Shown in pieces: positions 8,683-50,123 of a stretch of 63,363 nucleotides of DNA. Each line of letters starts with the position of its first letter. Position 1 is the stretch's first letter. The notes under the pieces are model-generated. The model saw only the letters and a list, made by a program, of their open reading frames with translations, did not search any database and was not told where the DNA came from. The position numbers and the translations under genes were made by a program. Origin of the DNA: Priapulus caudatus (taxonomy: Eukaryota); the NCBI RefSeq assembly GCF_000485595.1, contig NW_014577073.1, positions 388,427-451,789 of the forward strand, in the 5' to 3' direction.

Positions 8683-8813
8683 AAACGCATCTAAGGGGGT
8701 CTAATATCAAAAATTTTCAGGGGGAGAGCTACCCAGACCCCCCCTTCGCGTGCTCGCAACTTTGGGTTATGGTTAGACCCCCCCCCCCTGGTACAAATTC
8801 TGTACATGCCCCT
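8683..8813. mobile_element. hAT-like MITE (CAGGG..CCCTG), right half; left half at 6039-6094
   Basis: The two halves are contiguous in the duplicate copy at ~26546-26742. Confidence 0.6.
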
Positions 8814-9948: not shown

Positions 9949-10515
9949 TGTAATAAGGAATAATCATAATAAGAAGTTAGAAGAATTACTCGGAAAATAG
10001 TCAGTAACATAAAATAGAGACAAAGGGCTTTGTCTCCTGCGGGAGGCAGGGCGTAGGGCGTGTCGACCTGCCGCTAGGGAACGAAGAACAAAGGAAGGGT
10101 TTAGTCACGTGCTCGACCAGTGGTCACGCGGGCGGCAGTGACCACTGGGAGAGATGGACTTAGGACAAAGAACGAGCGGGAGTATAAAAACAGTGAGAGC
10201 CGGGAAACACCCCGACTAGTTTGATCTCGAGTTACGACACGTCACGCTACCTGTACCGTTGCTACAATCTAGACTACCTATCAATATGTAAGTTTTCTGT
10301 TTCTATGTCGCGTACCTATCTGTATTCGTCGGCTCATTCCGTGGGCACATATTATATGTAGAGTCAGGCTGGAATAGTAAAGATGTTGTTGTCTGAAATA
10401 TAGTATCTAGCGTTATGTGCTTTATATGAAGTTGTGCACGACGGTACTCCTAATACACTACGCATTACTACTAGACGATCACGGATAACGAGAGAGTAAG
10501 AGAATCGTTATTACA
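9949..10515 (+). repeat. 5' LTR of element A (567 bp)
   Basis: TG..CA with 8-bp inverted termini; 10214-10515 matches 20012-20313 with about 5 substitutions. Confidence 0.92.
10184..10222 (+). promoter_or_regulatory. LTR core promoter: TATA box and initiator-like site
   Basis: TATAAAA at 10184-10190; CTAGTT initiator-like motif ~30 nt downstream; CACGTG E-box at ~10107. Confidence 0.55.
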
Positions 10516-10517
10516 AT

Positions 10518-10533
10518 TGGTGCCGAGTGACCA
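10518..10533 (+). promoter_or_regulatory. Primer binding site (tRNA-His or tRNA-Phe-like)
   Basis: TGGTGCCGAGTGACCA begins 2 nt after the 5' LTR. Confidence 0.75.
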
Positions 10534-10861
10534 ATGCGTATGGAGATATCGTTGTAGCACAGTATGTTCTATGTGTGTTTCGTGTATATTAACATGTGTG
10601 TTCTTTCTGAGATATTGTAAGTCGCCGAGGCTGCATTGACGTCGACCTACGACTCGACTGCACTCATTCCGATATCATCGTCTGCGTCTACGACCTACCG
10701 TCATCGCCGTAATATGTAAGTGCATCAAATTTGTTTATAATCTATGGAGCTCGCCTTATAGTTGTGATATATTGTGCGGAATATTATTAGCTGTTGTTTG
10801 AAGTACGTTGGGGGATACGGACGCTTGTTTGACGGACGATTACGTTTTAAATACGTTCAAA

Positions 10862-11587
10862 ATGGCGACCAAGCGGCCGACGCTTGATCCTTTGTTGGCA
10901 AATTTATCTGATTTCAACATAGATAAACCGATCTTGACAACGGACGGACATTTAGACGATACGCGGTCGCCTGACGATTTGGAAGTCAGTTTTCCTGATT
11001 CGAGTTTCAAAATATTGCTCAAGGAGATTCAATCTTTAGTGTTATTAGGACGGTATTTACCGTTCGACGGCACAGATAATTCTCCGATATTTTTCGGCGA
11101 TTGGCTGGTCCATTTGGAACAGTTGTTTTTGATTTTAAACGAGCATGATGATGTTCGTAGAGTACGCCTCGCTCTAAGGCTTCTCCAGGGCGAACAAGCG
11201 CAATATCTTGCCGAAGTATTGAGCGTACACCCAGCAATCAGCTGGATTCATGTTTCACAAATATTTCGGCAAAGATACGCGGACGCGGCAGCTGCCGTAA
11301 TTGCGAAACAAAAATTTAAACGAGCGACACAAAAACACGGTGAATCTATTCAAGCCTTTGCAAAGCGCTTAGAGGCGAGTTCACGCATAGCGTTTGGGGT
11401 TCAGCTTGAGACGGATGTGATGCATAATGGACGTATGACGGATCAGTTTGTGGACGGACTTCTCAGTGATGCTCTACGGGGAAAATTAATTAAGAATAAA
11501 CCTCCGACGGAATTGAACCTGACCGGACCGGACCGGTCCTGCTCCTGCTCCTGCTCCTCTGCCTCCTGTCCCTCTGGTTCCGGTTGA
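10862..11587 (+). pseudogene. gag: Gag (capsid) truncated at ~11520 by the inversion junction
   Basis: ATG 10862; PFDG..W..LE, L.GE..W..F..RY, QKHGESIQAFAKRL (MHR-like), QFVDGL; ends in junction-derived residues. Confidence 0.85.
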
Positions 11588-12838
11588 TCGCTCTCCGTGT
11601 TGTGCGCAGCTCCGACGTCGTCTGCTTCCTGCTCTGTAGTTAATCTTGACAACAAATCAGCAGTCGCATTTTCGACCCCCTTTCGGTACACAATGGTAGG
11701 GCTATATTCGCTAATGATCATGGCCCATCACAACAGCTTCAGGTTTTGCAACTTCGGTGATGTTAGCAAGAATTTAAGTGGTAAATGATCACAGATTATC
11801 GTAAATCTACTGCCAGCTAAAAAATGCCTGCTTTTCGTTAGTGCAAACACTATAGCTAAAGCTTCACGTTCGGCAGTTGGCCACCTCGCCTGTGTAGGAG
11901 TTAACCTAGCACTAATATATAAAATGACAACCTCGTGCCCCTGCGCATCCTTTTGCGACAATGCGGCACCGACGGCGTATGCACTAGCATCTGTATACAA
12001 GAAATAAGGGTCATTAACTTGCGGATAAGCGAGAATTGGTGCTGTCAACAACGCCTGTTTTAATGCGTCGAAAGCACGCTGCGCATCGTCATTCCACACA
12101 AACCGTGCGTGCTTCTTGGTGAGGTGGGCCAACCAGCTTTGCAAAATCCTTAATGTGATTTCTATAATAATTAGCCATCCCGAGAACACGACGCATCTGC
12201 TTGACTGTCGTGGGCTCCTTCATCGCTTGAATGGCTGCGACTTTAAGCGGTTCTGGCTTCACTCCGTCCCTGCTGATCACATGTCCTAAATAACTAACAG
12301 ATTGCTTAAGAAATTCACACTTAGACGGATTTAATGTTAAACGCGCCTCACGCAGACGATCGAACACTACCTGTATATCTATAAGATGTTGCTCAAACGT
12401 CGGGGAGTGTACCACGATATCGTCAATATACGGTACAGCACATCTCTCCGTAAGCCCCTTTAACACGTTATTTAACAGTTGCTGAAAGACACTAGGCGAA
12501 TTTTTCAAGCCAAATGGGACGAAATGGTAGATGTACGTAGCCTTATGCGTGATGATAGCCGTCTTGTGTTGGTCGTCAGGATGCACAGGTATCTGAAAAT
12601 AACCACTCTTCAAATCCAACGTGGTAAAATATTTAGCGTTGGCTAATGAAGCCAAAATATCTTCAATCCTTGGTAACGGATACACGATGGCTTCGGTAAC
12701 TGCGTTAAGAGCCCTGTAATCGGCTACCAATCGACCGGTAGAGCTTCCTTTCTTAGGTACGATAAACACGGGCGTCGTCCAATCACTTGTGGCTTCCGAA
12801 ATAATTCCCGCTTCCAACAAAGCATTGATATGCTCCGT
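11568..12838 (-). pseudogene. pol: Inverted copy of pol (RT N-terminus through RNase H)
   Basis: LEAGII..PVFIVPKK..RLVADYRALN, LDLKSGYFQI, PFGLKNSP, YIDD, TDAS; 8-bp deletion near 12128 causes a frameshift. Confidence 0.92.
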
Positions 12839-12950
12839 ATGATCGTATAATAAATAATGCCTTTTATTTACCAGCGTCTAACAGGTCTACAAGTAATGCT
12901 GTGAGGACACGGACATAGCTTGTGCTGCTGCAGACCGGAATATTTTCGGA

Positions 12951-15900
12951 CTAAATATTTTACCACGTTGGATTTGAAGAGTGGTTATTTTCAGATACCT
13001 GTGCATCCTGACGACCAACACAAGACGGCTATCATCACGCATAAGGCTACGTACATCTACCATTTCGTCCCATTTGGCTTGAAAAATTCGCCTAGTGTCT
13101 TTCAGCAACTGTTAAATAACGTGTTAAAGGGGCTTACGGAGAGATGACCGGTCCCGTATATTGACGATATCGTGGTACACTCCCCGACGTTTGAGCAACA
13201 TCTTATAGATATACAGGTAGTGTTCGATCGTCTGCGTGAGGCGCGTTTAACATTAAATCCGTCTAAGTGTGAATTTCTTAAGCAATCTGTTAGTTATTTA
13301 GGACATGTGATCAGCAGGGACGGAGTGAAGCCAGAACCGCTTAAAGTCGCAGCCATTCAAGCGATGAAGGAGCCCACGACAGTCAAGCAGATGCGTCGTG
13401 TTCTCGGGATGGCTAATTATTATAGAAATCACATTAAGGATTTTGCAAAGCTGGTTGGCCCATTAACCAACCTCACCAAGAAACACGCACGGTTTGTGTG
13501 GAATGACGATGCGCAGCGTGCTTTCGACGCATTAAAACAGGCGTTGTTGACAGCACCAATTCTCGCTTATCCGCAAGTTAATGACCCTTATTTCTTGTAT
13601 ACAGATGCTAGTGCATACGCCGTCGGTGCCGCATTGTCGCAAAAGGATGCGCAGGGGCACGAGGTTGTCATTTCATATATTAGTGCTAGGTTAACTCCTA
13701 CACAGGCGAGGTGCCCAACTTTCGAACGTGAAGCTTTTGCTATAGTGTTTGCGCTAACGAAAAGCAGGCATTTTTTAGCTGGCAGTAGATTTACGATAAT
13801 CTGTGATCATTTACCACTTAAATTCTTGCTAACATCACCGAAGTTGCAAAACCCGAAACTGTTGCGATGGGCCATGATCATTAGCGAATATAGCCCTACC
13901 ATTGTGTACCGAAAGGGGGTCGAAAATGCGACTGCTGATTTGTTGTCAAGATTAACTACAGAGCAGGAAGCAGACGACGTCGGAGCTGCGCACAACACGG
14001 AGAGCGATCAACCGGAACTAGAGGGACCCGTTTTCACGGAGAGTATCAATACAGTGACCATAGCAGAACCACCAGGGACAAGGGCGGACGAGGACACCGC
14101 CGCAGGTCAAGAAGCGTACGAGGCGCCACCTGGTGACGCACCAGCTACAGAGGGGAGTAGTCCAGGTATGACAAACAATACACACCTAACGCACACAGCG
14201 CCACCTGGTGGCGAAGGAGGAGGAAAGGACGGTCGGGATGCCATACGACCAGCGGAAACCGCGCCAGCTACAGAGGGAGACACCGCCGAAGAGGAGCCGG
14301 CATTCGTCCTGAACATTACGACACCGCAAGACGAAGTGGCTTTGCTTACAGCGGACATTCCAGGCAATGCCAATCAGCAACTGACAGTGCTGCCATCACT
14401 AGTCGAAATATTGGAGCAGCAATGCAAGGACCCGCTATTATACAAGATACATGTGGCATTGACATCACCGGATGCTACAATTAAGGATTTAAACGTGCTG
14501 ACTAATTACATGATTTTGGACGATTTATTGCAGCATATCACAGAGGCGACAGCAACCACGGAACCTAGCGTGCAGCTAGTAGTACCACCACACTATCAGA
14601 CGGTTATAATGGCGTATCATCACGATAACATCTATAGTGCACATTTAGGCTTCGCCAAAACATATGCTAGGATCAAGGAGAGATATTATTGGCCAAAAAT
14701 GTATTCAACGATTTACGATTATGTACGCAGTTGCCTCATCTGTAAATCACGCAAGCTAACCTATGTACGTTCACCTTTAGCAGCGGCGCCAACGCCCGGG
14801 GCGCCTTTTGAAGTGATAGCGGTGGACACATGCCAGTTTCCAGCGACGCCTCGTGGTAATCGATACGTAATTCATTTCCACGATTTATATACGAGCTGGC
14901 CGGAAGTTTATGCGGTTAAGGATAAATCGGCCGAAACAGTGGCGAATCTTTTGATTAACGAAATTATCCCGAGACATTCTTGTCCGAGGATTTTACTTTC
15001 CGATAATGGCACGGAGTTTTGCAATAAGATAATGGATAAAGTAACGGAACATTTCCAGATAAAAGCCATAACGTGCGCACCATATCATCCTGCTTCTAAT
15101 GGAGCAAACGAACGCTTTCACAGAGTTTTGAACTCGATGTTGTCGCACTATGTTGACGCGGCACAGACGTCATGGGACTTGTTGTTGCCACCACTATTGT
15201 TAGCGTATCGGTCCGCCATTCATACTACGGCGCAGCATAGTCCGTTCTATTTGTTGTACGGCCGAGCACCGGTATTACCGATGGATAATTTGTTATTACC
15301 AAGAAGGAAGGCATACGATGAGGAACCGGTTTCGCAAGCGCTGGAGAGATTCCACCAGGCGTATGCGCACATGCGAACCGCAACGCAAGAGATGAGACAC
15401 CATAATAAGAAGCTTTACGACAAGCGGGCGAGGCTTCAGCAGTTCCAGGTTGGAGATCCAGTATTCTACCACGACCCGGTACTGAAGCCAGAGACCAGCC
15501 ATAAGCTAAATAGCCCGTGGAAAGCATATTATACGGTCATCAAAGTAATAACACCTAAGAAATTTCTTTTGCAACACAAAACGACACATTGCCAGGTCAC
15601 CTCCCATGTGGATAACATGCGAGCCGCCTATCCGTGGTTGCGCTGGGACCAACCGCGAGGAGAGGTCACGACCAGACCCAGGAGGGAAGCCAGAGCTGAA
15701 GTGATCCCTGAAGCCAGAGCTGAAGTGATCCCTGAAGCTATAGCGGAATCCGCTACTGAAGCCAACAAGGAAGCCACACCTGGAGAGAGTACAACGACAG
15801 GAGCTACCAGGAAACAACCACTGCGGCCTATCCTACGGGGAGCGAAGCTGCCATATCCAGTGACGATTCGGATTCAGGGGATGAAGCCATGCCATCAAGA

Positions 15901-15952
15901 CAGAGGGCTTCATCTCAGAGTAGCTATAGCGATAGCGATCTTTTACCATTAG
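12951..15952 (+). pseudogene. pol: Pol, 5'-truncated: RT C-terminal part, RNase H, spacer, integrase (HHCC, DDE) and C-terminal tail
   Basis: TDASAYAVGAALSQ, ERE, CDHLPL, ADLLSR; HH..H..C..C; VDTC, SDNGTEF, SNGANER; lacks protease and RT N-terminus; in-frame TGA at 13145-13147 just before YIDD. Confidence 0.93.
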
Positions 15953-16382
15953 CAAGGTTGGTGCAATCGCCGTTGCAGTAATCATCTACGGCGGCCTCCC
16001 ACTCGGACACCTCTGATCAAGGACTGTACGAGTAGGCAGGAAGTCAAGCGACAGGCAACTCACAATGATGCCAACAGGACCCGGGGCCTGGGGCATTATT
16101 GACAACCATGCGACACATAGGGAGAGCCATGACGATGGCACACCGGATCGTTATAGTCATAGGGAAAGGGGAGAGGTATACAATTCAGTGGCTACATTCG
16201 TTTCAGCTAGCACTTCGAGGGACCGCTAGAGACACAGGAACTCCTTCGAGGGGAGACTATGGCAGACCGTCATTACAGTACCCAGCATGAGTGAAATATC
16301 ACAGACTTCTAAGGACCTGTTGCTTTGCAGGGACATGCCGAGCCAGGGGAAGGGGTTTCACTTGGCTAAGTAAAATGACGCC

Positions 16383-16417
16383 GACTAAATAATCTTTCCT
16401 TATTTTTGTCATTACAG
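16383..16417 (+). promoter_or_regulatory. env splice acceptor
   Basis: GACTAAAT branch-like motif, TCTTTCCTTATTTTTGTC pyrimidine tract, TACAG|G immediately before a signal-peptide reading frame. Confidence 0.75.
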
Positions 16418-18671
16418 GTATCGACTGTGTGTTGCGACTCTCATACTCGCAGTGACGGTAGTAAGAGGAGAAGTGTTTGTACCGAAAGGGACGCTCGCAA
16501 TAACACAAAGTAGTTGGACCATCGTGTTTACGTTGGATGTATCACCTGTAAAGAATTATATGAGGGGTATTGATGATCAGATAGAATATTTGTTTAATGA
16601 GCGCAGCAAACGGGCCCCGCCTGCTGCGTCGCGACACCCTATTACTATAGTGACAGGGCTCGCATGTCGACACGAAATCAACCCACATTGAGGGGGGCAT
16701 TTCAAAAATGGCTTCACCCGAATGCTACAATAGTACCACTATGGATGAACAGCACAGTAAGAATGCAACAACAGAAACAAGTCCTCGCAAACAACGAACA
16801 ATTTCGTGAGATCATTGAGGTATTTATAAAGAAGCATGCAGCTGATTTCCGAATGCGCTATCATCGGCTATCAGAGCGCATTGAGGGGTTAACGTCTATG
16901 TTTGCTAATACGGGACATCGCTTCAAGCGATCATTATTGCCGTTTATCGGCCGATTTCAAAAAGCATTGTATGGAGTGGCGACGGAAGATGATTTAAATG
17001 ACTTACAAGCTAGATTAGCCGGGTTCGAGATCACGCAAGGGGCATTTCAACATGCCATAGAGGATTCATTAACAGTCTTTAATCTGACAAAGACGCAGGT
17101 AAAATTAAATCATGACACGTTAAACGAATTAATTGACGGCGTTGAGACCATGCGAGAGTTTGTCAATGGCATCAATGATCGGCTACTGACTTTGACGATT
17201 ACGCTGAATACGAGGACAGCAGCCATAATTCGCTTACAGACAACGATTGACATGATGATGTTAACTTTACAAGACGTCACGAATATAGTCGCGGACTTAG
17301 AACATTCACTAACCAGCTGTCTTACGGGCAGATTACCAATTTCGTTAGTACCGCCAACGCATTTACTAAGTATTTTGCGGAGTATCAAACAGGTGCTACC
17401 AAATTATCTGGCGATGCCGAAAGCATTAGACGAGACCATCCTGTATTACTATAGTTTATTGCAAACGATAGTGATACCAGTGCAGAATTCATTCCATATA
17501 CTGAACGTTTCTACCACTTAAGCATGTCGGCCACATAATAATGTCGATGTAATTATGTGTTATTTTTAACATTTTTCAAATATTGCCGGCACCTCAATAT
17601 ATTAATAACACGCGGGCGCACGTGTATTATGTGTTAGATGAGGAGTACGTGGCATTTGCGCAGGATAAAACACGTTACTTTTACCCTGAGCCCAACCTGG
17701 TACGCAAGTGCCTTCATGAAACCCATAACATTTGCCAGGCGGAGTCCGAAATCTATTACGTTAGAGGGTCCAGAGACTGTTTAGTGGCATTATTTTTAAG
17801 GCAAGCCGAGCACATACAAACTTATTGCCAGAGAAGGGTGAAGATGTGTGCTAACCCAAAGCATCTAGTTACATATATTGGTAATGGTCATTGGCTTTTA
17901 TCACCGGCAAAGACGTTTCGGTTGACAGTATCATGTCAGACAACCAATGACCAGCCTCCTACCATTACGGACATAGAGATAAAGTCACGTCAACTTGTAT
18001 CGTTGCAGTCGGGTTGCAGTGCGCATTCGGCTGACCTTACCTTGCCAACCTTTTACTTTCATGATTCGTCTGTAAATCTCACCAGATCGCTAGTTCATAT
18101 GTTACCTAAGGAGCTCCAGACACCGACAATATGGGCAGACCTGGCAGAATTGGCGGTAAAACGAGGTAATGCCAATGATCTCATCCCACAGTCTATAGTT
18201 CCCCCTAAGCTCTATGAAACCCATGACTTAGATATCGCATATCAGCATCTTAAGGACGCCATAGTTAATAGCCGAAGGATTTTCGATACTAACGAGGCAG
18301 CGCAGAACAATTTTCAGAGTGCACACATTCAGTGGCATCAGATAGTGATTTATGTTGCCATCGCGGTGGTAGCGATTGTCGTATTGTACTGCTGCTGTGC
18401 GCCACCACACCTCCGACCACGCCTATGCCAATCGTTCCCTGGCACCATACCGGCTCCTACCATTATACAACCCACGGTGCAACCCCTGTTGCAACAGGTT
18501 CATGCAACAGCACCCTTCATCCCGCAGCGCTTATATCCGACGGTGCACCCTGAAGAAATGGAGCATGAAGTAAGCCACAGGGTAGGAGCACATCCATTAG
18601 AGAATGTGCAGGATGGCGAGGAAGTGGAAATGAAAACTCTCGCTCGTTCAACGCGTTATCATAAGAATTAA
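16418..18671 (+). pseudogene. env: Envelope glycoprotein, baculovirus F / errantivirus Env type, with two frame disruptions
   Basis: Signal peptide (M)YRLCVATLILAVTVVRG; furin site plus fusion peptide RFKR/SLLPFIGRFQKALYGVAT; heptad region; Cys-rich ectodomain; TM IVIYVAIAVVAIVVLY followed by CCC; breaks at ~16660-16690 and ~17510-17583. Confidence 0.88.
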
Positions 18672-19083
18672 GACTATACTAAGGAGGCTCCATAGTTTAT
18701 TAGTATAACGATGCACAGGCGACGTATTTCACCATGTATCTAACAAGCACATATTGTATCGTGCACGAGTTAAAGCACTATGTGTTCACAAGTTCTAACC
18801 ACTATATGTTCGCGCGGTAACTGTCTCGGAAGATAATCTTAATGTTGCACAAGGACACAGTCTGTGTCACATATGTATAGATAGATAGCACTATGTTCAT
18901 CATTTCAGTACCAGTAGACAGGTGCTCACGCACACGTCTTCATCATTATATTGCGTGTTGGTTTTCCTTGTTTAGAGGTGTAAGCACGATGTTGTGAATG
19001 TGCCATGTAACCAGTACTATAGGATGCATTACCATGTATGCAGCACAGTAGAATAATCTAGACCTTTTTGAGTAACAGTCAAC

Positions 19084-19824
19084 ATGGACATGAACATCGA
19101 CGTCGTGGAGGCAACGCGTCACCTCCCCTACAACGATGACGACGACTGGACGGAGGAGATGGAAGACGCCCTGCGCGATATAAGGGCGCAGGCGAGCCGC
19201 ACGATGATTCATTACGACGACCCCACGCCGACCACAACGACTCCACGCCGAGCCCACACCGAGGACGCAGACGACGAGGCCACGGACAACGAAACGCCCC
19301 GCAAGCGTTACTGTCCGCGACCCATCAGCCACTCAGGGGCCATGCTAGCGGCCGGTATAAACATTGGAGGCGGCATGCGCTACGGGCCACTGTGCACACG
19401 CTGTGCACAGTGCCCCTGCCGTCGGCGCCTCCACAGTACGCCCATCAATGCCGTGCGGCCACTCGCCGAAGTGGTACCGCACGCGCACAGAGCCATGGCA
19501 CCAGCGGCTCGCCGTTACGGGGTGCCACCGGCAACGCCGCGCCTCATCTTCGGGGGAACGGCTGGGCAGGTGGCACACACCACCTGGCGGGCGTTCCTGG
19601 ACGACGTGCTCCGGTTCAGGAGATTGAACCCGGGGTTCACAGTCGTCCACCTCAATGACAATAGGCCCACCATCAAATTGGTGCCCATCGAGGAGGCACC
19701 ACTTCCAGGCGTCGCACTGGACCACCAGACACAACCAGGGGCATGGGGGGCCATCGATGAGGAGGAAATGGAGGAAGACGAGGAGGACGACGACGAGGAG
19801 GAAGACGACTTCTGGCGACGATGA
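19084..19824 (+). CDS. ORF4: uncharacterised 246-aa accessory protein with CxxCxxCxC cluster, basic NLS-like motif and acidic tail
   Basis: Intact ORF with good start context (CAACATGG), GC-rich, between env and the 3' LTR; motif-level homology to ORF 48414-48866. Confidence 0.75.
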   Translation: MDMNIDVVEATRHLPYNDDDDWTEEMEDALRDIRAQASRTMIHYDDPTPTTTTPRRAHTEDADDEATDNETPRKRYCPRPISHSGAMLAAGINIGGGMRYGPLCTRCAQCPCRRRLHSTPINAVRPLAEVVPHAHRAMAPAARRYGVPPATPRLIFGGTAGQVAHTTWRAFLDDVLRFRRLNPGFTVVHLNDNRPTIKLVPIEEAPLPGVALDHQTQPGAWGAIDEEEMEEDEEDDDEEEDDFWRR

Positions 19825-20011
19825 GTACTACGACGACGACGAGGAGCACGGCGACAGCGACGATGACAAAGGCGGCAGCCGGAAAAATTTTTTTTTGTTG
19901 TTTGTTTGATAATTAAATACTCAAATATATATATAAAAAATAAAAAAAACTATAATCAAATAAAAATATGTGTAGAAAATAATGTAATATGAGGTAAAAT
20001 ATTAAGTTTCT

Positions 20012-20313
20012 GACTAGTTTGATCTCGAGTTACGACACGTCACGCTACCTGTACCGTTGCTACAATCTAGACTACCTATCAATATGTAAGTTTTATGTTT
20101 CTATGTCGCGTACCTATCTGTATTCGTCGGCTCATTCCGTGGGCACATATTATATGTAGAGTCAAGCTGGAATAGTAAAGATGTTGTTGTCTGAAATATA
20201 GTATCTAGCGTTATGTGCTTTATCTGAAGTTGTGCACGACGGTACTCCTAATACACTACGCATTACTACTAGACGATCACGGATAACGAGAAAGTAAGAG
20301 AAACGTTATTACA
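20012..20313 (+). repeat. 3' LTR of element A (R-U5 only; U3 and PPT absent)
   Basis: Matches 10214-10515; ends TTATTACA followed by TSD TTCG. Confidence 0.9.
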
Positions 20314-20562
20314 TTCGTCATCTACCACACTCTGGTTATTATTTGCCGGACGAATCGCGCACGCACGCACGCACACGCACGCACACACACGGACACACAC
20401 CCCCACACACATAACTAGACAGAGGGCACTCACGGAGAGTGCATACCTCAGCCAGAATGTAACATGTATGTGTTACGAGCTGGCTCACCGCTCGCTGCTG
20501 GCTGCTGCTGACTGACTCGCCGCTCGCTGGTGGTTGCTGCTGACTCACTCGCCGCTCGCTGA

Positions 20563-22965
20563 TGTAATACCGTCGAAAGATGGATAAGTAAATATCTAGG
20601 AGTAATTTATTTTTCTGGGGTGGCATATATGGCCAGCTGTGCGAGGTCGCAACGCGGGAATAGACAGGACCGGGACAGGGTAGAAGTAGCCACTTATAGA
20701 CAAGCCTGCAGTACAGTAGAGTACAGTACAGTACGGACTGACGAGAGACAATAGGTAGGCGTGTCTACCTATGTCAGTATATAACCGCGTGTGCGACCAG
20801 AGAACGACACAGAGCGATAGTGTAATAGAAATACAGGCATATAACATCTTGGTTAAAGACAGCGACTGACAGCTTATACCTCGTAAGTTATGTGAGGTTA
20901 CTCGCGTAACTACACTGTAGGCATTTGCCACGTTATGAGCGGATGCTAGTTTAAGTAGTTTCAATTAAAGAGATTCATGAATACGTCATACTGTGCGTTA
21001 TCTATCATTCTTACATTCGTTCACATTGACGCTAGCAAGGGTGTATTAAACGCGCTCACCCACTTGCAACTCGGGAGAATAACGCTCCGATTGAAATGAA
21101 ACCGTTGGCGCGTACTAAGAATTAATGCAAGAATAGCAAAACTAGAATACCGCCAAGTCATAAGAATAGTAGCTACGTGCGCATGTTTTGTCAATGTGTT
21201 CACCGATAATGCACTAAATGGTTTACTATGTTACAATGTATTCACTATATTAACTATAATGCCACGCTGGACGCCGACTCTTATGCTTACCTATGTTTCA
21301 CGACACAATATCTGTACGTCGCATCCTTAAGAACGCACTAAATCACAGAGTTTTAATGCATATATGTACGTTTGTTGTATTCCATAGCACGCATGCTGTG
21401 AGTGGCCACTAACACCGTTTTCGTATTACGATCAACAATGGAATAACCATAGCCTTTTTAAAGCTAACATGAGCATCACCACGGAAACGCAGGCCACCTC
21501 CCCCTGCGATGACCGAGAAGATTCGTGAGGAAAAGCAAGCTGCAGCCGGCGCTGCAGCCAGTCAAGCACGCGAAGAGACCAACGACGCGGGGCGCCGTCC
21601 CACGAGCAGTGCAACGGCGCGGACGTGCAGAAAGAGCCGCCCCACCAAGCGGTAACTGCGAGCCGACCGCCGCGCCACCCACCGCGCGCCGCCCGACCGA
21701 CCGACGACGTTGCGCGACACAGTTCATCCGCAACGCCCCCCGCCCATCGCTGTGCACGCAGTGTACACGTGTGCCCGTGCGATCGCCGCCGTACACGCCA
21801 CACCGCCCGTTCGTCACAGTCAGCCGGGTCGTCACGCCAGGCCGGTGACCACCGCTACCATCGCTGCCGAGCTTCCGCTACGACAGAAGGACCCGAGGAA
21901 AGAAGAGGAGCGACGCTTCTACAGCGTGGTACCGCCTGAGGACCCAGATGACAGCTGTCGACACACCCCACGATGGACGGCCGAGGACCCCCACGAGACG
22001 GCGAGACCCCACGATGACGCGCGAGGACCACGACGACGACCACACGGACGACGCTGCAAGCGCCAGACTATTAATGTTTTTCTTTTTTGATGTGCGCAAG
22101 AAAACGAAAGAAAAGAAGATCGATAAAAGTAAAATAAAATAAAAAAAATAAGAGATAAAACTCAAATAAAAAGCAAACTGGGCTTAGTTACGTTAGTTAG
22201 TTAAGTTAAAGAGGTGATGGGTGCACTGAAAAAAAATCAAAATAATAAAATAACAGAACGAAAAATTCACAAGAAAGATATATAAAAATTAATATAAAAA
22301 CGTATTAAAAGTACAGCGTAACATTCGGCTTCTAAACAACGATGTTCGCGGGCATAGCCGTGCGGCTTCCAACTTTTTCCTTAAGGGGGGGATAATTAAT
22401 AGCCGCGAAAGACGAAAGTAAATATCTAGCAGTAATCCTATTGTTTCTGGGGGCATATATGGCAGCTGTGTGAGGTCGCAACGCGGATATAGACAGGACC
22501 GGACAGGTAGAAGTAGCCACTATAGACAACCTGCGTACGGACTGACGAGAGACAATAGTAGTGTCTACCTATGTCCGTATATAACCGCGTGTGCGACAGA
22601 GAACGACACAGAGCGATAGTGTAATAGAAATACAGGCATATATACATCTGTTAAGAGACTAGCGACTGACAAGCTTATACCTCTAAGTTATGTGAGGTTA
22701 CTCGCGTAAACTACACTTACCATTCGCCAAAACGTTATGCGGATCAGTTAAGTATTTCAATTAAAGTAGATTCATGAATACGTCATCCTGTCGTATCTAT
22801 CATTCTTACATCGTTCACATAGACCTAGCAAGGGTGATTAAACGGCGACCACCCCACTTGCAACTCGGGAGAATAACGCTCCGATTGAAATGAAACCGTG
22901 GCGCGTTACCAAGAATTATGCTAAGAAGTATGCAGACTATAAAAAGAAAATCTTGTGTGGTTATA
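20563..22965 (+). mobile_element. Second LTR family (element B): LTR - ORF4 homologue - PPT - LTR, lacking PBS/gag/pol/env
   Basis: LTR 20563-~21149 starting TGTAATAC; ORF4-like 21469-21939 (indels); PPT AAGGGGGGGATAA 22383-22395; 3' LTR 22396-22965; cleaner LTR end GTGTTACA at 23679-23686. Confidence 0.8.
21469..21939 (+). pseudogene. ORF4 homologue of element B, frameshifted (probably read errors; intact version at 48414)
   Basis: Aligns base by base to 48414-48866 with scattered single-base indels; retains LCTQCTRVP. Confidence 0.7.
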
Positions 22966-24439
22966 GCTCGATTAGTGCTCTAGTCACTCATACACACCAA
23001 CAACCACATTTGTTCATAAGTGCCCATCGCCTCGCAGTAACCAGATAAATACGGGCCTATAGGACAGAGAGGATCAACGGAAGAATCGAACACGACGAGG
23101 CATCTTCGGCACCCAATGAGTGGTTACCGATCTCCTAGTTAAACACAGGAGGCCATGCAAAAAATATAACGAAAATTACGTAAAATTAATGATAAAAAAC
23201 AGATCATCGTTTTCATTCACGTCCTGAACCAAGAAGCGTTGCACCTGTTCCACAGCAAACGTTTCACCACAAAGTTTTTCACTGGTACGATTATTAAGGG
23301 AAATCACACTACATCTAACCCCCTATTCGGTTCCGATTCACCTATTTTTGATATCGCGAACATTCCTCAACAACATGACTATCGGTAAACCAAGAGTTAA
23401 CTGACATGTACTTCTTACATTTGCATTTTTAAAATAGTATTATGATAGATTGTTAAAATTACACGCATGAAACAGGTAATAAGTGTGCGTAAAAACAGAT
23501 GTTCGGTAAGAAAAAAAAGATTCGTTACGAAATTCAGCTGCATGACATGAGTTCTCACGTCCTATATCGTCGCTTACGATNNNNNNNNNNNNNNNNNNNN
23601 NNNNNAAATGAAACCGTTGGCGCGTACTAAGAATTATGCTAAGAAGTATGCAGACTAGAATATAATGAAAATCTGTGTGTGTTACAGCTCGATTTAGTGC
23701 TCTAGTCTCCATACTCACCAACAATCACATTTGTTTTTCAGTGCCAATCGCCTCGCTGTAACCAGATGAATAGGGCCTATAGGGACTAGAGAAGACACGA
23801 AGAATCAACACGACTTCGAGGCATCTTCGAGCAGCAATTGAGTGGTTACCGATCTCTAGTTAAACACAGGAGCCATTGCAAAAAAATAACGAAAATTACG
23901 TAAAATTAATGATTAAAAACAGATCATTCGTTTTCATTCACTCCTGATACCAAGAGGCGTGCACTGTTCTCAGCAAACGTTTTCACAAAGTTTTCACTGG
24001 TACGATATTAGGGAAGATCACAATAATCTAACCCCCTATTCGGTTCGATTCACCTATTTTTGATATGAGCGAACATTCTCAACAACATGATTATCGCGTA
24101 AACCAAGAGTTAACTGTACATGTACTTCTTACATTTTCATTATTTAAATATTATTAGTGGATAGATTGGTTAAATTACAGCATGAAACAGGTAATATAGT
24201 GGTCGTAAAATAGATTGTTCGTTAAGATAAAAAAGATTCGTTACAATTATTCGCTGGCATGACATGTGTTCTCACGTCTATATCGTCGTTTACGATTGAA
24301 ATGCTTTGTAATAAAATTAATATACTCTAACTAAAATCTCCGAGGTATTTATTATTTACTAAAATCGCTTTAGATAATTCAGTAAAATGTACATTGCCGT
24401 GAATCACTGGTTGCGGTGGTGGGGATCGAACTCCACATG

Positions 24440-34400: not shown

Positions 34401-37400
34401 TTATTTGCTCATTACAAGTTATCGAGCTGTGTGTTTGCGACTCTGGTACTCGCAGTGACGTTATAAGAGAGAAGTGTTTGCCCTACCAAAAGGGACGCTC
34501 GCCAATAACAAAAGTAGTTGCGACCATTCGTGTTTTACGTTGGATTTATCGCCTGGAAGATTATATTAGGAGGGGATTGTGATCAGATAGATATTTGTTA
34601 ATGAACGCAGCAAACGCGGCCGCCTGCTGCGGCACGACCGCCTATACTAGTAACAGGGCTCGGCATGTCGACACGAAATCTACCCACATTTGAGGGGGTA
34701 TTCGGAAAATGGCTGCACCGGCGAATGCTACACTAGCTACCATATGGATGAACAGCACAGTAAGACTGCAACAACAGCACATGTCACGCAACAACGACAA
34801 ATTCCGTGAGATTATTGATGGTATTTATAAAGAAGCATGCAGGCTGTATTTTCGACTTCGCTATGATCGGCTATAGAGCGCATTGAGGGGCTACGTCTTA
34901 TGTTTTAATTTACGGGACATCGGCTCAAGCGATCATTATTGCCGTTTATCGAGCCGATTTTCAAAAAAGCATTGTTAGAGTTGGCGACGGAAGTATGATT
35001 TAAATGACTTGCAAGCGCTTAGAGTTATCCGGGTTCGAGATTACGCAGGGCATTTCAACATTTTTTTTACCATAGAGGATTCATTGACATCTTTAATCTG
35101 ACAAAAGACGCAGGTAAATTGAATCATGACACTTTACGGAATTAATTGACGGCGTTGAGGCCATGCGCAGTTTGTCATAGATAACGATCGGCTACTGACT
35201 TTGACGATTACACTGAATCGAGCGACGGCCAGCATAATTCGGTGTACAGACAACGTTTGACATGATGATGTTGCTTTAGACGTCACGAATATAGTCTGCG
35301 GCACTTAGAAATTCACTAACCAGCTGTCTTCCGGGCGGGATTTTTACCAATTTCGTTAGTAGCCGCCAACGGCATTAACTAAGTATTTTGCCGGAGTTAT
35401 CAAACAAGTGCTACCAAATTATCTGCATTGCTGAAAGCTTGGACGGATCATTGTATTAATATAAAATGTATTTGCAAACGATAGTGATACCAGTGCAGAA
35501 TTCATTCCATTACTGAACGTTTCTTACCACTTAAAGCATGTCGGCCACTAATAAATGTCGATGTAATTATGTGTTATTTTTAAACATTTTTCAATTTGCC
35601 GGCACCTCGATATATTAATTGGACACGCGGGCGCCCACGTGTATTATAGTGTTAGATAAGGAGTACGTGGCATTTTGCGCGCAGGATATCACGTTACTTT
35701 TACCTTGGCCCAACCTGGCCTACGCAAGTGCTCATGAACCATAAATCTTGGCAGGCGGAGTCGGAGTCTATTACGTTAGGGGGGTCCAGGATGATTTTTT
35801 TTTTTTTTTTAAAATATGCATTATTTTTTAAGCAAGCGAGCAATACAACCTATTGACAGAGAAGGCATGAAGATGTTGTAACCCCAAAGATTAGTTAATA
35901 TATATTGGGCAATGCGTCATTGGCTTTTATCACCGGCAAACGTTTCGGTTGACGAGTATGCATGTAGGACAATCATGACCAGCCTTTCATTACGGACATA
36001 GAGATAAAGTCACTTCAACATGTATCGTTGCAGTTCGCGGTTTGCAGTGCGCATTCGGCTGGACCTTACCTTTGCCAACCTTTTATTTCAGGGATTCGTT
36101 CTGTAAATCTCAACAGTCGCTTTCATATTTTACTAAGGAGCTCCAGGACACAAATATGGGCAGACTGGCAGATTGGCGGATAACGAGCGTTAATGCCACA
36201 GATTCTCATCACGTCTATCGTTCCCCTAGCTCTATATGAACCATGTTAGATATCGCCTATGGATCTTAAGGATGCCATAGCTAATAGCCGAAGGATTCTC
36301 GATACTACGAGGCAGCGCAGAACAATTTTTAGGTGCACACATCTCAGTGCGCACCAGATAGTGATTTATGCTTTGCCATCGCGGTAGCTAGCGTTGGTGT
36401 ATTGTCTGCTGCTGTGCGCCACCACACTCCGACCACGCTATGCAATCGTTCACCTGGCACCATACCGGCTCCTACATTATTTACAACCACGGTGCAACCC
36501 CTGTTGCAACAGGTTCATGCAACAGACCCTTCATTCCGGAGCGGCTTATATCCGCGGTTGCACCTGAGAAATGCGAGCATATTATTTAGTCACGGGGCGT
36601 AAGAGCCACAGTCCGTGTAGAGAATGTGCAGGATGGCGAGAAGTGGAAATGAAACTTCTCGCTCGCTTCAACGCGGTTCCATAAGTAATTAGGACTTCTA
36701 AGGAGCTCCAGAGTTTATTAGTATATAACGATGCACAGGCGACGTATTTCATCCATGTATCTTAAACAATGCACTATTGTATCGTGCACGGTTAATGCCT
36801 ATGTGTTCACAAGTTCTAACCACTATATGTTCGCGCGGTAACTGTCTCGGAGATATCTTAATGTTGCACACGGCACACAGTTGTGTAACTATGCTATTAG
36901 ATTGATAGCACTATATTCATCATTTCAGTTCCAGTAGACAGGTGCTCACGCAGCACGTTTTCATCGTTATATTGCGTGTTTGGTTTTCTTGTTTATGAGG
37001 TGTAGCACGATGTTGTGATGTGCATGTATACCAGTATATAGGATGCAATTCCATGTTACGCAGCCAAGTGATAATCTGACATTTTTTGGAGTACAGTCAA
37101 CATGGACATGAAATCGACATGCGGGGAGGCGACGAGTCACCTCCCCTACAACGATGACCGACGAATGGGGACGAGGAGATGGAAGGAACCGCGCTGGCCG
37201 GATATAAGGGGCGCGGCGCGCACTCGATGTTCATCACGACGACCCACGCGCCACGAGCGACTCCACGCGAGCCACACGAGCGACGCGACGACGAAGGCCG
37301 ACAACGAAACGGCCCGCAAGGCGTTACTGTCCGCAGACCAATAGCCACGCGGGGCGTGCTAGCGGCGGTATAAACATTTGGAGGCGGCATGCGGACTATC

Positions 37401-39034
37401 GGGCACTGTTCACACGCTGCTGCACGTCTCTGCCGGCGGCGCTCGACAGTACGCAATCAATGCCGTGCGGCACTCGCCGAGTCGTGCGCACGCGCACAGC
37501 GACATGCACCAGCGGCTCGCCGTTACGGGGTGACCACCGCACGCCGCGCCTCATCTTCGCAAGGGAAACTGGCTGGGCAGGGGGCGTACACCACTGGCGG
37601 GCGTTCCCGGACGCGTGCTCGGTTCAGGAGATTGAACGGGTCACAGTCGTCCACCTCAATGACAATGAGGCTACCATCAAGTGTGCGATCGAGGAGCACA
37701 TTTCAGGCGTTCGCAATGGACCACAGATCAACGCGCGGGGCATGGGGGCCTCGATTGAGGGGAATGCGAGAAGACGAGGAGGAGGCGACGACGAGGAGAA
37801 AGACGACGTCTTGGCGCGCATGAGTTACTAGGACGACGACGACGGCGCAGGGCACGGGACAGCTGCGCGGACGAAGGCGGCAGCCGGAAATTTTTTTGTT
37901 GTTTGTTGTTTGGTGATAATTAAGATTACTCAAATCTATATATTATAAAAAAATAAAAATAATATATTAAATAAAATATGTGCTAGACAAATGTTAATAT
38001 GAGGGTAATATATTAGTTTTGACTAGTTTTTGATCTCCGAGTTACGACACGTCACGTTACCCGTACCGTTGCTACAATCTATGACTGACTAATCATTATG
38101 TAAGTTTATGTTTCTATGTCGCGTACCTATCGTGTATTCGTCGGCTCTTCGTGGGCACATATTATATGTAGAGTCAAGATCTGGAATAGTGAGATGTTGT
38201 TGTCTTGAATATAGTATCTAGCGTTATTGCTGCTTTATCTGAAGTTGTGCACGACGGCTATCCTAATACACTAGATACTACTAGACGATCACGGAAAACG
38301 AGAGAGTAGGAAACGTTATTACATTTTCGGTCATCTACAACTCTGGTTATTTATTTGCGACGAACGGCCGACGCACGCACCGACGCACACACACGGACAC
38401 ACACCCCACAGATAACTACACAGAGGGCACTCACGGGAGTGCTACCTCGCCGATGTAACATGTATGTGTACGGAGCTGGCTCACGCTCGCTGCTGGCTTG
38501 CTGGGCTGACTGACTCGCGTCAGCTGGTGGTTGCTGCTGACTCACTTCGCCGCTCCCTGATGTATTACCGTCGAAAGACGGATAGTAAATATCTAGAGAT
38601 AATTTATTTTTCTGGTGGCATATTGGCCAGCTGTGCGAGTCGCAACGCGGAATAGACTCAGGACGGGCGGGCTAGAGTAGCACTTATTAGACAAGCCTGT
38701 CAGTACAGAGGCTACAGTACAGTAGGCTGACGAGGACAATAGGTAGGGTGTCTACCTATGTTCAGTATATTAACGCGTTGTGGCGACCAGAGACGACCAA
38801 GGGCGATTAAGTGTAATAGAATACAGGAATAACATCTTTGTTAAGACAGCGACTGACGCTTATCACTCGTAAGTTATGGGAGGTTACTCGCCGTACTACA
38901 CTGTGTAGGCATTATGCACGTTATGAGCGGATGCTAGTTTAAGTAGTTTCATTAGAGTTCTGAATAGTCATTACTGTGCGTTATCTTCTTCCTTACTTTT
39001 GTTCACATTGACGCCTAGCCAAAGGGTGTATTAA
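25310..39034 (+). other. Indel-riddled duplicate of ~4830-6094 plus 8683-21050, including a second copy of element A (27898-38323); probable long-read gap-fill artefact
   Basis: Colinear with the first copy, same TSD, flanks, inversion and U3 loss; differences are mostly 1-bp indels; ends at a 25-N gap. Confidence 0.85.
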
Positions 39035-39062: not shown

Positions 39063-39132
<70 letters not shown>

Positions 39133-46973: not shown

Positions 46974-48413
46974 CTGAAAAACATAATCATGAATGATTAG
47001 GCACATTAAATACATTAATGCATGCGATTCAAATGCTCCTCTGCAACACACAATTAATGTACACTGCACATTGCACAACATAAAATATTATAGCCAGGTA
47101 GCGTACACTAATCGCGTTTATTCCGGTTGGCCTACTCCCATTTGCCTACGGCAAAATTCGCATTTCGCCTACGCAAGATTCCCAGTTGCCTACACCAGTC
47201 GCTACTTCACCAATTCGTCTACGCTCAAAATACTACCCCATTCCCATTTCGCCTGCGATCGGTGTGTTCACTAAATAATCATTTATAATAAATTAAATAT
47301 GGTTTTTATGGCGTCTACATAGACTACAGGAACCAAAAGAAAGTGCGCGAAGGAGCAGCGTCATCTACGTCTACTGCGGTGCATCTGTGGTGGAGTGGTG
47401 GGATTACTACTTCCTAGTAAACCCTGTTAGTCCCAAATGTGTTCACAATTACACGCCGAAACAGTGGATAGGCACAGGGATGGTATCAGGAACCTTAATT
47501 CTCAAAAAGGAATGCTTTCGTTTGGGATCGTATGAAAGTTGCACGAGGATGGCGCGTACGTTTAGGGAAGGGGTTTCAGATTAAAGATGGAAGCTCCCAG
47601 TCGTACGTAGTAGTACAACTATTTGCAAGACCAGAAGTAGTAAGACACATCCATTTACACTACGCCAAGGCCTACAGGGCTGAATAGGAGAGCTGCACCT
47701 GTACGTTATCAATTAACGCAGGCAAAAACCACACCAGTACCAGCAGCCCCGCGCGCACCCGCCCCCCACACCATCGCCATGGCACTGGCATGGCCACTGG
47801 CAGTGGCAGTACCCGTTACATGTAACATACTGACAGTACAGAATGCCATACGAACATTACTCACGACTCTTCAAGGGCATAACCTTCTTCAACCAAATTT
47901 ATCTTTTGAGAATCTTCATATCCCTGTGAATTGTAGCCTCATACATCCAGGCATGGTATAGATTCGACTAGCAAACCGGCAGTGAAAACTCTTTCTATCT
48001 CCGCGCTCACCCACTTGCAACTCGGGAGAATAACGCTCCGATTGAAATGAAACCGTTGGCGCGTACTAAGAATTATGCTAAGAAGTATGCAGACTAGAAT
48101 ACGCCATAGTCATAAGAATAGTGATGTACGTGCGATGTTTTGGTCAATGTGTTTCACGATAATGCACTAAATGTTTTACTATGTTACAATGTATTCACTA
48201 TATTATACTATATGTCTCACGTGTGACGCACTCTATGTTACTTATGTTTCACACAATATTTGTTACGTCGCATCCTTAAGACGCACTAACTCACAGGTTT
48301 TTAATGCATATATGAACGTTTGTTGTTTTAAGCACGCTATATGTTGAGTGCCACTAACCACCGTTTTCGTATTATGTATCACAATGGAATAACCTAGCCT
48401 TTTTTAAAGCAAC

Positions 48414-48866
48414 ATGAGCATCACCCGGAAAACGAGCCACTCCCCCTGCGATGACCGAGAAGATTGGGAGGAAGAGCTGCAGGCGGCGCTGAGCCAGGTC
48501 AGCACGCGGAGCAACGACGCGGGGCGCCGTCCCCACGAGCAGGCAACGGCGCGGGACATGCAGGAAGAACCGCCCCACAAGCGGTACTGCGAGCCGACCG
48601 CCGCCGCCATGCCACCGCCGCCGCCGCCGACCGCCGACGACGGTTGCGCGACACAGTCGATCCGCAACGCCCCCGCCACGCTGTGCACGCAGTGTACACT
48701 GTGCCCGTGTCGACGCCGCGTTCACGCCACGCCGCCCGTCGTCACAGTCAGGCCGGGCGTCACGGCCGCGCCGGTGACCACCGCTACCATCGCTGCCGGA
48801 GCTGTCGCTACCGACGAGAACGCCGAGGAAGAAGAGGAGCGACGCTTCTACAGCGGGTACCGCTGA
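48414..48866 (+). CDS. ORF4-family accessory protein of element B (150 aa)
   Basis: Intact ORF, CAACATGA start; DDREDWEEELQAAL, PPHKRYC, LCTQCTLCPCRRRVHATP, EEEEERRFY. Confidence 0.72.
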   Translation: MSITRKTSHSPCDDREDWEEELQAALSQVSTRSNDAGRRPHEQATARDMQEEPPHKRYCEPTAAAMPPPPPPTADDGCATQSIRNAPATLCTQCTLCPCRRRVHATPPVVTVRPGVTAAPVTTATIAAGAVATDENAEEEEERRFYSGYR

Positions 48867-48960
48867 GGACCCCACGATGACGGCGAGCACCCCACGATGA
48901 CGGCGAGGACCCCACGAGGACGGCGAGGACCCCACGATGACGGCGAGGACCCACGACGAC
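48866..48960 (+). repeat. 20-bp tandem repeat GAGGACCCCACGATGACGGC, ~4.5 copies
   Basis: Directly visible right after the ORF stop. Confidence 0.85.
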
Positions 48961-50123
48961 GACGACGACGGCTGCAACGCCAGACTAGTTATTTTTTTTC
49001 TTGTTTTGTATTGTCCAAGAAACGAAAGGAAGAAAAGATCGATAAATGTAAAATAAAATAAAATAAAATAAAATAAAACAAAATAAAGAACTGTGTGCTT
49101 AGTTAAGTTAGTTAGTTAGTTAAGAGGGTGATGGGTGCACTGAAAAAAAAATCAAATATAAAATAACAGAACGAAAAACTCAAAGAAAAATAATAATAAA
49201 AATTAATATAAAATACGTATTAAAAGTACAGGGTACATTTCGGCTTAACAACGTTGTTCGCCGCATAGCTGCGGCTTCCAACTTTTTCCTAAGGGGGGGG
49301 GGATAATGTAATACCGTCGAAAGATGGATAAGTAAATATCTAGGAGTAATCTATTGTTCTGGGGTGGCATATATGGCCAGCTGTGTGAGGTCGCAACGCG
49401 GGAATAGACAGGACCGGGACAGGGTAGAAGTAGCCACTTATAGACAAGCCTGCAGTACGGACTGACGAGAGACAATAGGTAGGCGTGTCTACCTATGTCA
49501 GTATATAACCGCGTGTGCGACCAGAGAACGACACAGAGCGATAGTGTAATAGAAATACAGGCATATAACATCTTGGTTAGAGACAGCGACTGACAGCTTA
49601 TACCTCGTTAGTTATGTGAGGTTACTCGCGTAACTACACTGTACGCATTCGCCACGTTATGGGCGGATGCTAGTTTAAGTAGTTTCAATTAAAGAGATTC
49701 ATGAATACGTCATACTGTGCGTTATCTATCATTCTTACATTCGTTCACATAGACGTTAGCAAGGGTGTATTAAACGCGCTCACCCACTTGCAACTCGGGA
49801 GAATAACGCTCCGATTNNNNNNNNNNNNNNNNNNNNNNNNNNNNNNNNNNNNNNNNNNNNNNNNNNNNNNNNNNNNNNNNNNNNNNNNNNNNNNNNNNNN
49901 NNNNNNNNNNNNNNNNNNNNNNNNNNNNNNNNNNNNNNNNNNNNNNNNNNNNNNNNNNNNNNNNNNNNNNNNNNNNNNNNNNNNNNNNNNNNNNNNNNNN
50001 NNNNNNNNNNNNNNNNNNNNNNNNNNNNNNNNNNNNNNNNNNNNNNNNNNNNNNNNNNNNNNNNNNNNNNNNNNNNNNNNNNNNNNNNNNNNNNNNNNNN
50101 NNNNNNNNNNNNNNNNNNNNNNN

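What the first reader, a model, noticed from the sequence alone, without database searches (positions are those of the whole stretch)
19084..19824. Unrecognised accessory gene (ORF4) between env and 3' LTR, conserved across two different LTR families
Seen: the 246-aa ORF is intact although gag, pol and env of the same copy are broken. It shares ordered motifs with the 150-aa ORF at 48414-48866: HLPYNDDDDWTEEMEDAL / HSPCDDREDWEEELQAAL; TPRKRYC / PPHKRYC; LCTRCAQCPCRRRLHSTP / LCTQCTLCPCRRRVHATP; acidic tail ending in an aromatic residue (EEEDDFW / EEEERRFY). The linkers are unalignable and the LTRs differ, which suggests protein-level selection. Both ORFs are visibly GC-richer than their surroundings. 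Known: complex retroviruses keep regulators at this position (nef, tax/rex, foamy tas/bet, epsilonretrovirus orfA/B); RxL is a cyclin-docking motif and TPxK a CDK site. Inference: a nuclear zinc-binding regulator (transactivator, cell-cycle modulator or silencing suppressor). I recognise no family for it.
Basis: partly seen in the sequence, partly recalled or inferred. Interest (0 to 1): 0.9.

Follow-up and report, generated by a model that had tools for sequence, protein, structure and literature searches.

The report
Fourth gene in priapulid errantivirus-like elements
Two related envelope-carrying retrotransposon families, likely of the marine worm Priapulus caudatus, both carry an unnamed extra gene between env and the downstream repeat that likely encodes a nuclear regulator of the element's own expression, a layout familiar from complex vertebrate retroviruses but not found in the errantivirus papers searched.

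Summary
The ORF is real (19084-19824, 246 aa, GC 0.64). It sits between an F-type env and the 3' LTR of a young Ty3/gypsy provirus with a TTCG target duplication. The 150-aa ORF at 48414 lies in the same slot of a second family: env tail, spacer, ORF, polypurine tract, different LTR. That protein is the only credible homolog found. Selection shows mainly as frame preservation; overall pN/pS is not outside a neutral null. Being intact in this copy is uninformative (P=0.52). The RxL and CDK motifs are not conserved. Both ORFs have a splice-acceptor-like site just before the ATG, and env has the gypsy-type AT|G spliced start. RNA reads are sparse but highest over ORF4 in 3 of 3 runs. Best reading: a spliced accessory gene, most likely an LTR transactivator (0.4). 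Earlier scan notes report non-env third ORFs in gypsy elements of other genomes; none reports a gene after env.

The parts
9949..10515 (+). 5' LTR of element A (TGTAA...TTACA), preceded by TTCG
   Evidence: TATA-like motif at 10183
10518..10535 (+). primer-binding-site-like TGG sequence
   Evidence: tRNA identity not tested
10716..10721 (+). leader splice-donor-like GTAAGT preceded by AT (a second donor-like site lies at 10617)
   Evidence: use is inferred
10862..11587 (+). gag, cut short by the rearrangement
   Evidence: Pfam PNMA 1e-7, Retrotrans_gag 7.5e-4
11568..12900 (-). inverted block of pol holding an RT domain on the minus strand; also present in the duplicate at 29534-32025
   Evidence: RVT_1 2.4e-37
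12951..15952 (+). pol remainder, order RT - RNase H - integrase
   Evidence: best PDB hit Ty3 Gag-Pol 1.5e-47
16418..18671 (+). F-type env with no ATG in its 5' frame, acceptor AG ending 16417, furin site RFKR at 16919, membrane segment and long tail; frameshifted near 16.65 kb and 17.52 kb
   Evidence: Baculo_F 1e-5
18672..19083 (+). 412-nt spacer ending in a T-run and acceptor-like AG (19077-19078); alignable to the family B spacer; not structured
19084..19824 (+). ORF4, 246 aa: acidic helix (about 19-39), PRKRYC (72-77), CxxCxxCPCRRR (104-115), C-terminal domain (about 150-212), acidic tail ending DFWRR
20012..20313 (+). 3' LTR of A lacking its first 265 nt and the polypurine tract; followed by TTCG
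   Evidence: 297 of 302 identical to the 5' LTR
20563..21059 (+). LTR2 copy (family B) joined to an env tail
   Evidence: 468 of 478 identical to the copy at 49307; 197 DNA reads leave the window sequence at 21059
21469..21935 (+). noisy duplicate of the 150-aa ORF, likely an assembly twin
37102..37823 (+). noisy duplicate of ORF4, likely an assembly twin
48002..48097 (+). C-terminal remnant of family B env, with stop
   Evidence: score 60, 0 of 2000 shuffles
48098..48413 (+). family B spacer with acceptor-like AG ending 48409
48414..48866 (+). 150-aa ORF: family B ORF4 with an in-frame loss of about 111 codons relative to XP_014673648.1
   Evidence: 89.6% identical over 134 residues; gap = P0001 residues 214-324
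49291..49303 (+). polypurine tract
49307..49790 (+). LTR2 (3' copy), again followed by the env tail before the N gap

Best explanation
ORF4 lies between env and the 3' LTR in two sister families of F-env-carrying Ty3/gypsy elements, and is likely a functional fourth gene made from its own spliced mRNA, whose protein would enter the nucleus and most likely activate transcription from the element's LTR, as foamy-virus Tas does from the same position. Shown: position, two-family homology, open frames, motifs, acceptor-like sites, low-level transcription at family level. Inferred: splicing from the leader donor; nuclear import through PxKRY/RRR; metal binding by the CxxCxxCxC cluster; nucleic-acid or cofactor contact through the cluster, the adjacent arginines and the C-terminal domain; activation through the acidic-aromatic N-terminal helix and tail. 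Confidence that it is a real protein-coding accessory gene is about 0.85; that it regulates the element's own expression about 0.6; that it does so at transcription about 0.4.
For: Same slot in two families. Full-length homology to XP_014673648.1: 90 of 222 identical, z 54, C-terminal part alone z 34. Frames open in both lineages while 15 of 17 spacer gaps are not multiples of 3; neutral simulations leave the frame open in 0-30 of 2000 runs at 20% substitution and 19-250 of 2000 at 10%. Cys block pS 0.60 vs pN 0.22; its best 24-codon window (16 identical) exceeds all 200 divergence-matched neutral runs (max 15). C-domain 30 of 62 identical against a neutral 97.5% bound of 0.45 at 60% nucleotide identity. 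Acceptor-like AG 4-5 nt before the ATG in both families. The RefSeq model's upstream D-N residues fit a splice at that AG (inference). Env has the AT|G splice-made start described for Drosophila gypsy (PMC2585583 passages). RNA/DNA depth ratio in the first ORF4 bin is 0.12, 0.067, 0.064 against 0.031, 0.012, 0.003 over env. No membrane segment. That acidic-aromatic segments act as activation domains is recalled knowledge.
Against: pN/pS over the shared N-terminal region (0.815) is inside the neutral null: 35-54 of 200 runs are as low at four divergence levels. dN/dS depends on method (NG86 0.57, LWL85 0.63, YN00 0.29, from dN and dS) and rests on two sequences. At 62% nucleotide identity the null's best window reaches 18 of 24, above the observed 16. 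The C-domain's 48% is not above neutral if background identity were 68%, and its window was picked after seeing the alignment. No spliced RNA joint was listed (51-nt reads, about 7-13 reads in the first ORF4 bin). The RNA excess could come from 3' bias, GC bias of the DNA run, or acidic-repeat reads in the second bin. No fold or family supports any activity. Family B tolerated loss of the best-conserved domain in this copy. Nothing here separates activation from export or anti-silencing directly.
Confidence: 0.4

Rival explanations
1. ORF4 is a Rev/CERV-like export factor: made from the most-spliced mRNA, it would bind intron-containing genomic and env RNA through the Cys-Arg loop and license their export.
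For: The element appears to use two acceptors and so must export intron-containing RNA. CERV of Cer1 is a spliced, nuclear, Cys/Arg-loop protein required for gRNA export (PMC10309623, section 9 and passages).
Against: Neither spacer is more structured than shuffles (99 of 100 and 95 of 100 shuffles fold as well); no Rfam hit in 9900-23000. Only a loose export-signal pattern, inside the predicted folded domain. CERV is 517 aa and shares exons with gag. Two acidic-aromatic ends are not needed for this role.
Confidence: 0.2
2. ORF4 is an anti-silencing or anti-restriction protein that blocks piRNA or heterochromatin control, for example by binding histones or silencing factors through its acidic-aromatic tail.
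For: Fast-evolving, lineage-restricted and largely disordered. Foamy Bet occupies the same region and counters APOBEC3 (reference title seen in PMC7828637). Cys-rich viral silencing suppressors are recalled.
Against: No conserved GW/WG motif (1 in ORF4, 0 in the family B protein). No homology to any known suppressor.
Confidence: 0.2
3. ORF4 modulates the host cell cycle through cyclin docking (RxL) and CDK sites.
For: ORF4 has 4 RxL and 2 full CDK patterns. Two TP sites (after the Cys block, and ATP) are conserved.
Against: 0 RxL, 0 full CDK sites and 0 LxCxE in the family B protein.
Confidence: 0.06
4. The ORF is a non-functional GC-rich stretch, or a once-captured host fragment, inherited passively by two sister families.
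For: Overall pN/pS within the neutral null. Spacer aligns at similar divergence. GC and GC3 unlike gag/pol/env, suggesting a separate origin. RNA is sparse.
Against: Both frames stay open over about 250 codons while the spacer is full of frame-breaking gaps. Only 10 of 2000 base shuffles give a stop-free frame this long. ATG context and acceptor-like site are conserved. No host donor gene found.
Confidence: 0.14

Closest known systems
Errantiviruses (env-carrying Ty3/gypsy, Metaviridae), including the 'ancient errantiviruses' of Chary and Hayashi (PMC13524379: abstract, part 1 of section 5, passages, supplement term searches)
   Same: LTR-gag-pol(RT-RH-IN)-F-type env-LTR; furin site and fusion-peptide pattern; AT|G splice-made env start as in gypsy (PMC2585583 passages).
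   Different: A fourth gene after env. That survey included the P. caudatus assembly (supplement row), but 'Priapul' occurs in no other supplement file and 'extra ORF', 'accessory', 'ORF4' were not found where searched (cells over 400 characters are cut, figures unseen). A 2012 review says accessory genes are not shown for errantiviruses (PMC3383448 section 9).
Foamy virus tas/bel-2 (PMC7828637 passages); other complex-retrovirus accessory genes listed in GyDB (PMC2238898 passages)
   Same: Regulator encoded between env and the 3' LTR.
   Different: No sequence similarity (no Pfam or PDB hit). Host element is Ty3/gypsy, not Retroviridae. Expression here looks spliced; an internal promoter was not tested.
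CERV of C. elegans Cer1 (PMC10309623 section 9 and passages)
   Same: Accessory nuclear regulator of an invertebrate env-carrying LTR element; spliced mRNA; candidate NLS; Cys/Arg loop; lineage-restricted.
   Different: CERV is 517 aa, shares exons with gag and has three structured domains. ORF4 is a separate 246-259-aa gene after env and mostly low-confidence in models. Direct sequence comparison with CERV was not run.
Additional ORFs of bdelloid rotifer LTR elements (PMC5408684, abstract and outline only) and plant aORFs (PMC7264820, search listing only)
   Same: Extra ORFs in LTR retrotransposons.
   Different: The rotifer ORF3 types named in the abstract stand as the third ORF (env-like, GDSL esterase, DEDDy exonuclease). 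Here the gene is additional to env and has no enzyme match.
XP_014673648.1 / LOC106813918, Priapulus caudatus
   Same: Residues 83-341 are the full-length family B ORF4.
   Different: Annotated as an uncharacterised host protein with an 82-residue N-terminal extension; residues 1-74 have no match in this window.

Membership tests
Errantivirus-like Ty3/gypsy element (element A) | Paired LTRs with TG...CA ends, target-site duplication, PBS | tested here: met
   the 3' LTR is 5'-truncated
Errantivirus-like Ty3/gypsy element (element A) | pol order RT-RNase H-integrase, closest to Ty3 | tested here: met
Errantivirus-like Ty3/gypsy element (element A) | F-type env with furin site, fusion peptide, membrane segment | tested here: met
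   Baculo_F 24.8 bits vs cutoff 24.1
Errantivirus-like Ty3/gypsy element (element A) | Aspartic protease motif and gag CCHC knuckle | tested here: inconclusive
   patterns not found in 11500-13400; the region is rearranged
Errantivirus-like Ty3/gypsy element (element A) | Placement in the ancient or insect errantivirus pol clades | not tested
   no reference alignment in hand
Foamy Tas / lentiviral Tat-type transactivators | Sequence homology | tested here: not met
   no Pfam family for ORF4 or P0001; no PDB hit below E 1.2
Foamy Tas / lentiviral Tat-type transactivators | Position between env and 3' LTR | tested here: met
Foamy Tas / lentiviral Tat-type transactivators | LTR transactivation | not testable with these tools
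   needs a reporter assay
CERV / Rev-type export factors | Made from a spliced mRNA | tested here: inconclusive
   acceptor-like sites conserved; no RNA joint listed
CERV / Rev-type export factors | Structured response element in retained RNA | tested here: not met
   spacers only: z +2.25 and +1.86; the rest of the element was not folded
CERV / Rev-type export factors | Direct homology to CERV | not tested
   CERV sequence not fetched; it was not among the database hits
Cyclin-docking cell-cycle modulators | Conserved RxL / CDK / LxCxE motifs | tested here: not met

The most novel reading that the evidence does not exclude
Priapulid F-env gypsy elements are 'complex errantiviruses': they independently evolved the complex-retrovirus layout, with a second splice acceptor feeding a dedicated regulator gene after env whose product is a new Cys-cluster protein family controlling the element's own expression.
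Probability: 0.5. Interest if true: 0.78.

Novelty: new variant of a known kind. Interest (0 to 1): 0.58.

Why it matters
Complex genomes with a regulator 3' of env are treated as a vertebrate-retrovirus trait, and the errantivirus review read here says such genes are not shown for errantiviruses. A conserved post-env gene in two families from a deep ecdysozoan lineage would show convergence on that layout in Metaviridae. It would also give a concrete target: scan the env-to-LTR interval of the roughly 1,500 catalogued errantiviruses for overlooked genes. It reassigns an 'uncharacterised' RefSeq protein to a retroelement. Limits: one host species, two families, no functional data.

Tried and rejected
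Homolog searches: word-index search with ORF4, 0 of 2004 candidates; with the 3-sequence alignment, 1 of 7996, P0001 itself. phmmer over 1.84 billion proteins gave 3 hits; P0002 (low-complexity repeat, 21 stretches) and P0003 (short acidic repeat, 24 residues) were dropped as compositional. Env search among longer proteins: 0 of 2304. Locus scans: 0 of 600, 0 of 594, 0 of 288, 0 of 90 for ORF4 and 0 of 2 for pol; these collections hold little animal DNA. No whole genome was available, so no copy census. Structure: mean pLDDT 45.9 and 50.5; no Foldseek match at E<=0.001 in BFVD or PDB; the LC3/Atg8 rows at E>=1.5 were rejected as noise; the wide structural search did not complete. ESM Atlas: top scores 0.77 and 0.75, all TM under 0.5. 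Sequencing-run search: no RNA holder listed; RNA runs came by species label. A fine-scale read lay over ORF4 was not obtained, so copy-level variation and splice junctions stay open. The env-tail protein test (95 of 1000) used the wrong frame and is superseded. RRE-like structure in the spacer: rejected. Cyclin/CDK reading: rejected. Intactness in this copy as evidence: rejected. Paper searches that found no description of this gene; a search on 'fourth ORF' across the library was not completed.

Full report
Observation. The 246-aa ORF at 19084-19824 and the 150-aa ORF at 48414-48866 are present as described. Both are GC-rich (0.64 and 0.70; GC3 0.74 and 0.82) against 0.42-0.49 for gag, pol and env. 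Their similarity is real: BLASTP E 9e-15, 0 of 1000 shuffles reach the score, and the coding frame pair scores best of 18 frame pairs.

The element. ORF4 belongs to a provirus spanning 9949-20313 with a TTCG target duplication and a TGG primer site. Its LTRs are 297 of 302 identical over the part that survives at the 3' end. It carries gag, a pol closest to Ty3 among solved structures with an inverted RT-bearing block, and an env that hits Baculo_F just above the cutoff, has a furin site and fusion-peptide pattern and is frameshifted twice. The window is a partly duplicated assembly: the ORF-like stretches at 37102 and 21469 differ from the clean ORFs mostly by single-base gaps, so I count two loci, not four.

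The second family. The 150-aa ORF follows an env C-terminal remnant (0 of 2000 shuffles) and a 316-nt spacer, and precedes a polypurine tract and a different LTR. So both ORFs occupy the slot after env. The spacers align at DNA level (z 8.1), at a score matching about 55-60% identity. These are diverged sister families, not unrelated elements.

The homolog. A search of 1.84 billion proteins gave 3 hits, of which one is credible: XP_014673648.1 of Priapulus caudatus. The 150-aa ORF is 89.6% identical to it over 134 residues and lacks its residues 214-324 in frame. The host is therefore inferred to be P. caudatus. The full-length protein aligns to ORF4 end to end (90 of 222 identical) and adds a conserved C-terminal domain, ATP-L-FG-QVA-W-DDV-F-LNPGFTVVH, predicted at low confidence as a helix and two strands. 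No other homolog, family or fold was found.

Is it under selection? For: both lineages kept about 250 codons open while 15 of 17 spacer gaps break frame; simulated neutral decay leaves the frame open in 0-30 of 2000 runs at 20% substitution and 19-250 of 2000 at 10%. The Cys block has pS 0.60 and pN 0.22, and the C-domain core is 30 of 62 identical against a neutral 97.5% bound of 0.45 at 60% nucleotide identity. Against: pN/pS over the shared N-terminal region is inside a simulated neutral null (35-54 of 200 runs as low); dN/dS ranges from 0.29 to 0.63 by method on two sequences; the C-domain excess vanishes if background identity were 68%. Intactness in this young copy is uninformative (P=0.52). 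I put a functional gene at about 0.85.

Expression. Both ORFs have a T-run and AG 4-5 nt upstream of the ATG, with in-frame stops further upstream, and this context is conserved in the DNA alignment. Env lacks its own ATG; a leader donor preceded by AT and an env acceptor followed by G reproduce the splice-made start reported for Drosophila gypsy (PMC2585583 passages). The RefSeq model's residues just before the ORF fit use of the family B acceptor (inference). In 3 of 3 RNA runs laid, depth relative to DNA was highest over the two ORF4 bins. Counts are small (about 7-13 reads in the first bin), reads are 51 nt at 85% likeness and appear unstranded, 16 reads in one run have loose ends in the acidic tail, and no RNA joint was listed. 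This shows low-level family transcription, not a spliced ORF4 mRNA.

Mechanism. Conserved features are an acidic helix with Trp, PxKRYC, LCTxCxxCPCRRR-TP, the C-domain and an acidic tail ending in aromatic residues; there is no membrane segment. RxL and CDK sites are absent from the second family, which removes the cell-cycle argument. The spacer is unstructured, which weakens but does not exclude a Rev/CERV-type role. Two acidic-aromatic ends, a basic import-like motif and a Cys cluster fit a transcriptional activator best (recalled architecture; inference), at 0.4. Export factor 0.2, anti-silencing 0.2, passive sequence 0.14, cell-cycle 0.06.

Comparison and novelty. The element passes the errantivirus-like tests that could be run. 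ORF4 works, by inference, like Tas or CERV but shows no homology to Tas-type proteins in Pfam or PDB, and direct comparison with CERV was not run. The pan-metazoan errantivirus survey included this assembly but term searches of its text and 7 supplement files found no such gene (long cells cut, figures unseen). A 2012 review states accessory genes are not shown for errantiviruses. Seven paper searches found no description; most subscription journals and Repbase are not covered. Earlier scan notes describe non-env third ORFs in other genomes (untested AI notes) and none after env. Verdict: new variant of a known kind, interest 0.58.

Noticed in passing
window 8683-21049 vs 26604-39034; 21051-22886 vs 48002-49816; 39065-42467 vs 50138-53469; 43012-47997 vs 55473-60366: Large 85-89% identical duplicates with mostly single-base gaps and 25-N gaps: likely noisy long-read gap fill, so copy counts in this window are inflated.
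   Followed up: partly
window 10704-10725 and 16370-16431: A leader donor preceded by AT and an env acceptor followed by G would make env's start codon by splicing, as in Drosophila gypsy; the signal-peptide frame has no ATG of its own.
   Followed up: partly
window 18400-18671 and 48002-48097: Env has a long proline-rich tail after a YCCC membrane-proximal motif; its terminal motif HPL...EMKxLAR is conserved between the two families.
   Followed up: partly
window 20563-22942 and 48002-49816: Family B is a non-autonomous, tandem-like unit (LTR2, env tail, spacer, short ORF4, PPT, LTR2, env tail) with no target duplication seen.
   Followed up: partly
window 20388-20560: High-copy, transcribed repeat between the 3' LTR of A and LTR2 (DNA depth about 555, RNA 56-74 in that bin).
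   Followed up: no
window 53540-53799: Translation resembles a BEL/Pao pol fragment (recalled); no Pfam hit at E<=0.1.
   Followed up: partly
window 316-363 and 3671-3718: Short degenerate TTAGGG-like tracts in inverted orientation.
   Followed up: no
window 19825-19880 and 48867-48985: Both ORFs are followed by GACGAC-type repeats, a T-run and an A-rich stretch with AATAAA signals upstream of the LTR; the similarity (z 9.3) may be low-complexity.
   Followed up: no
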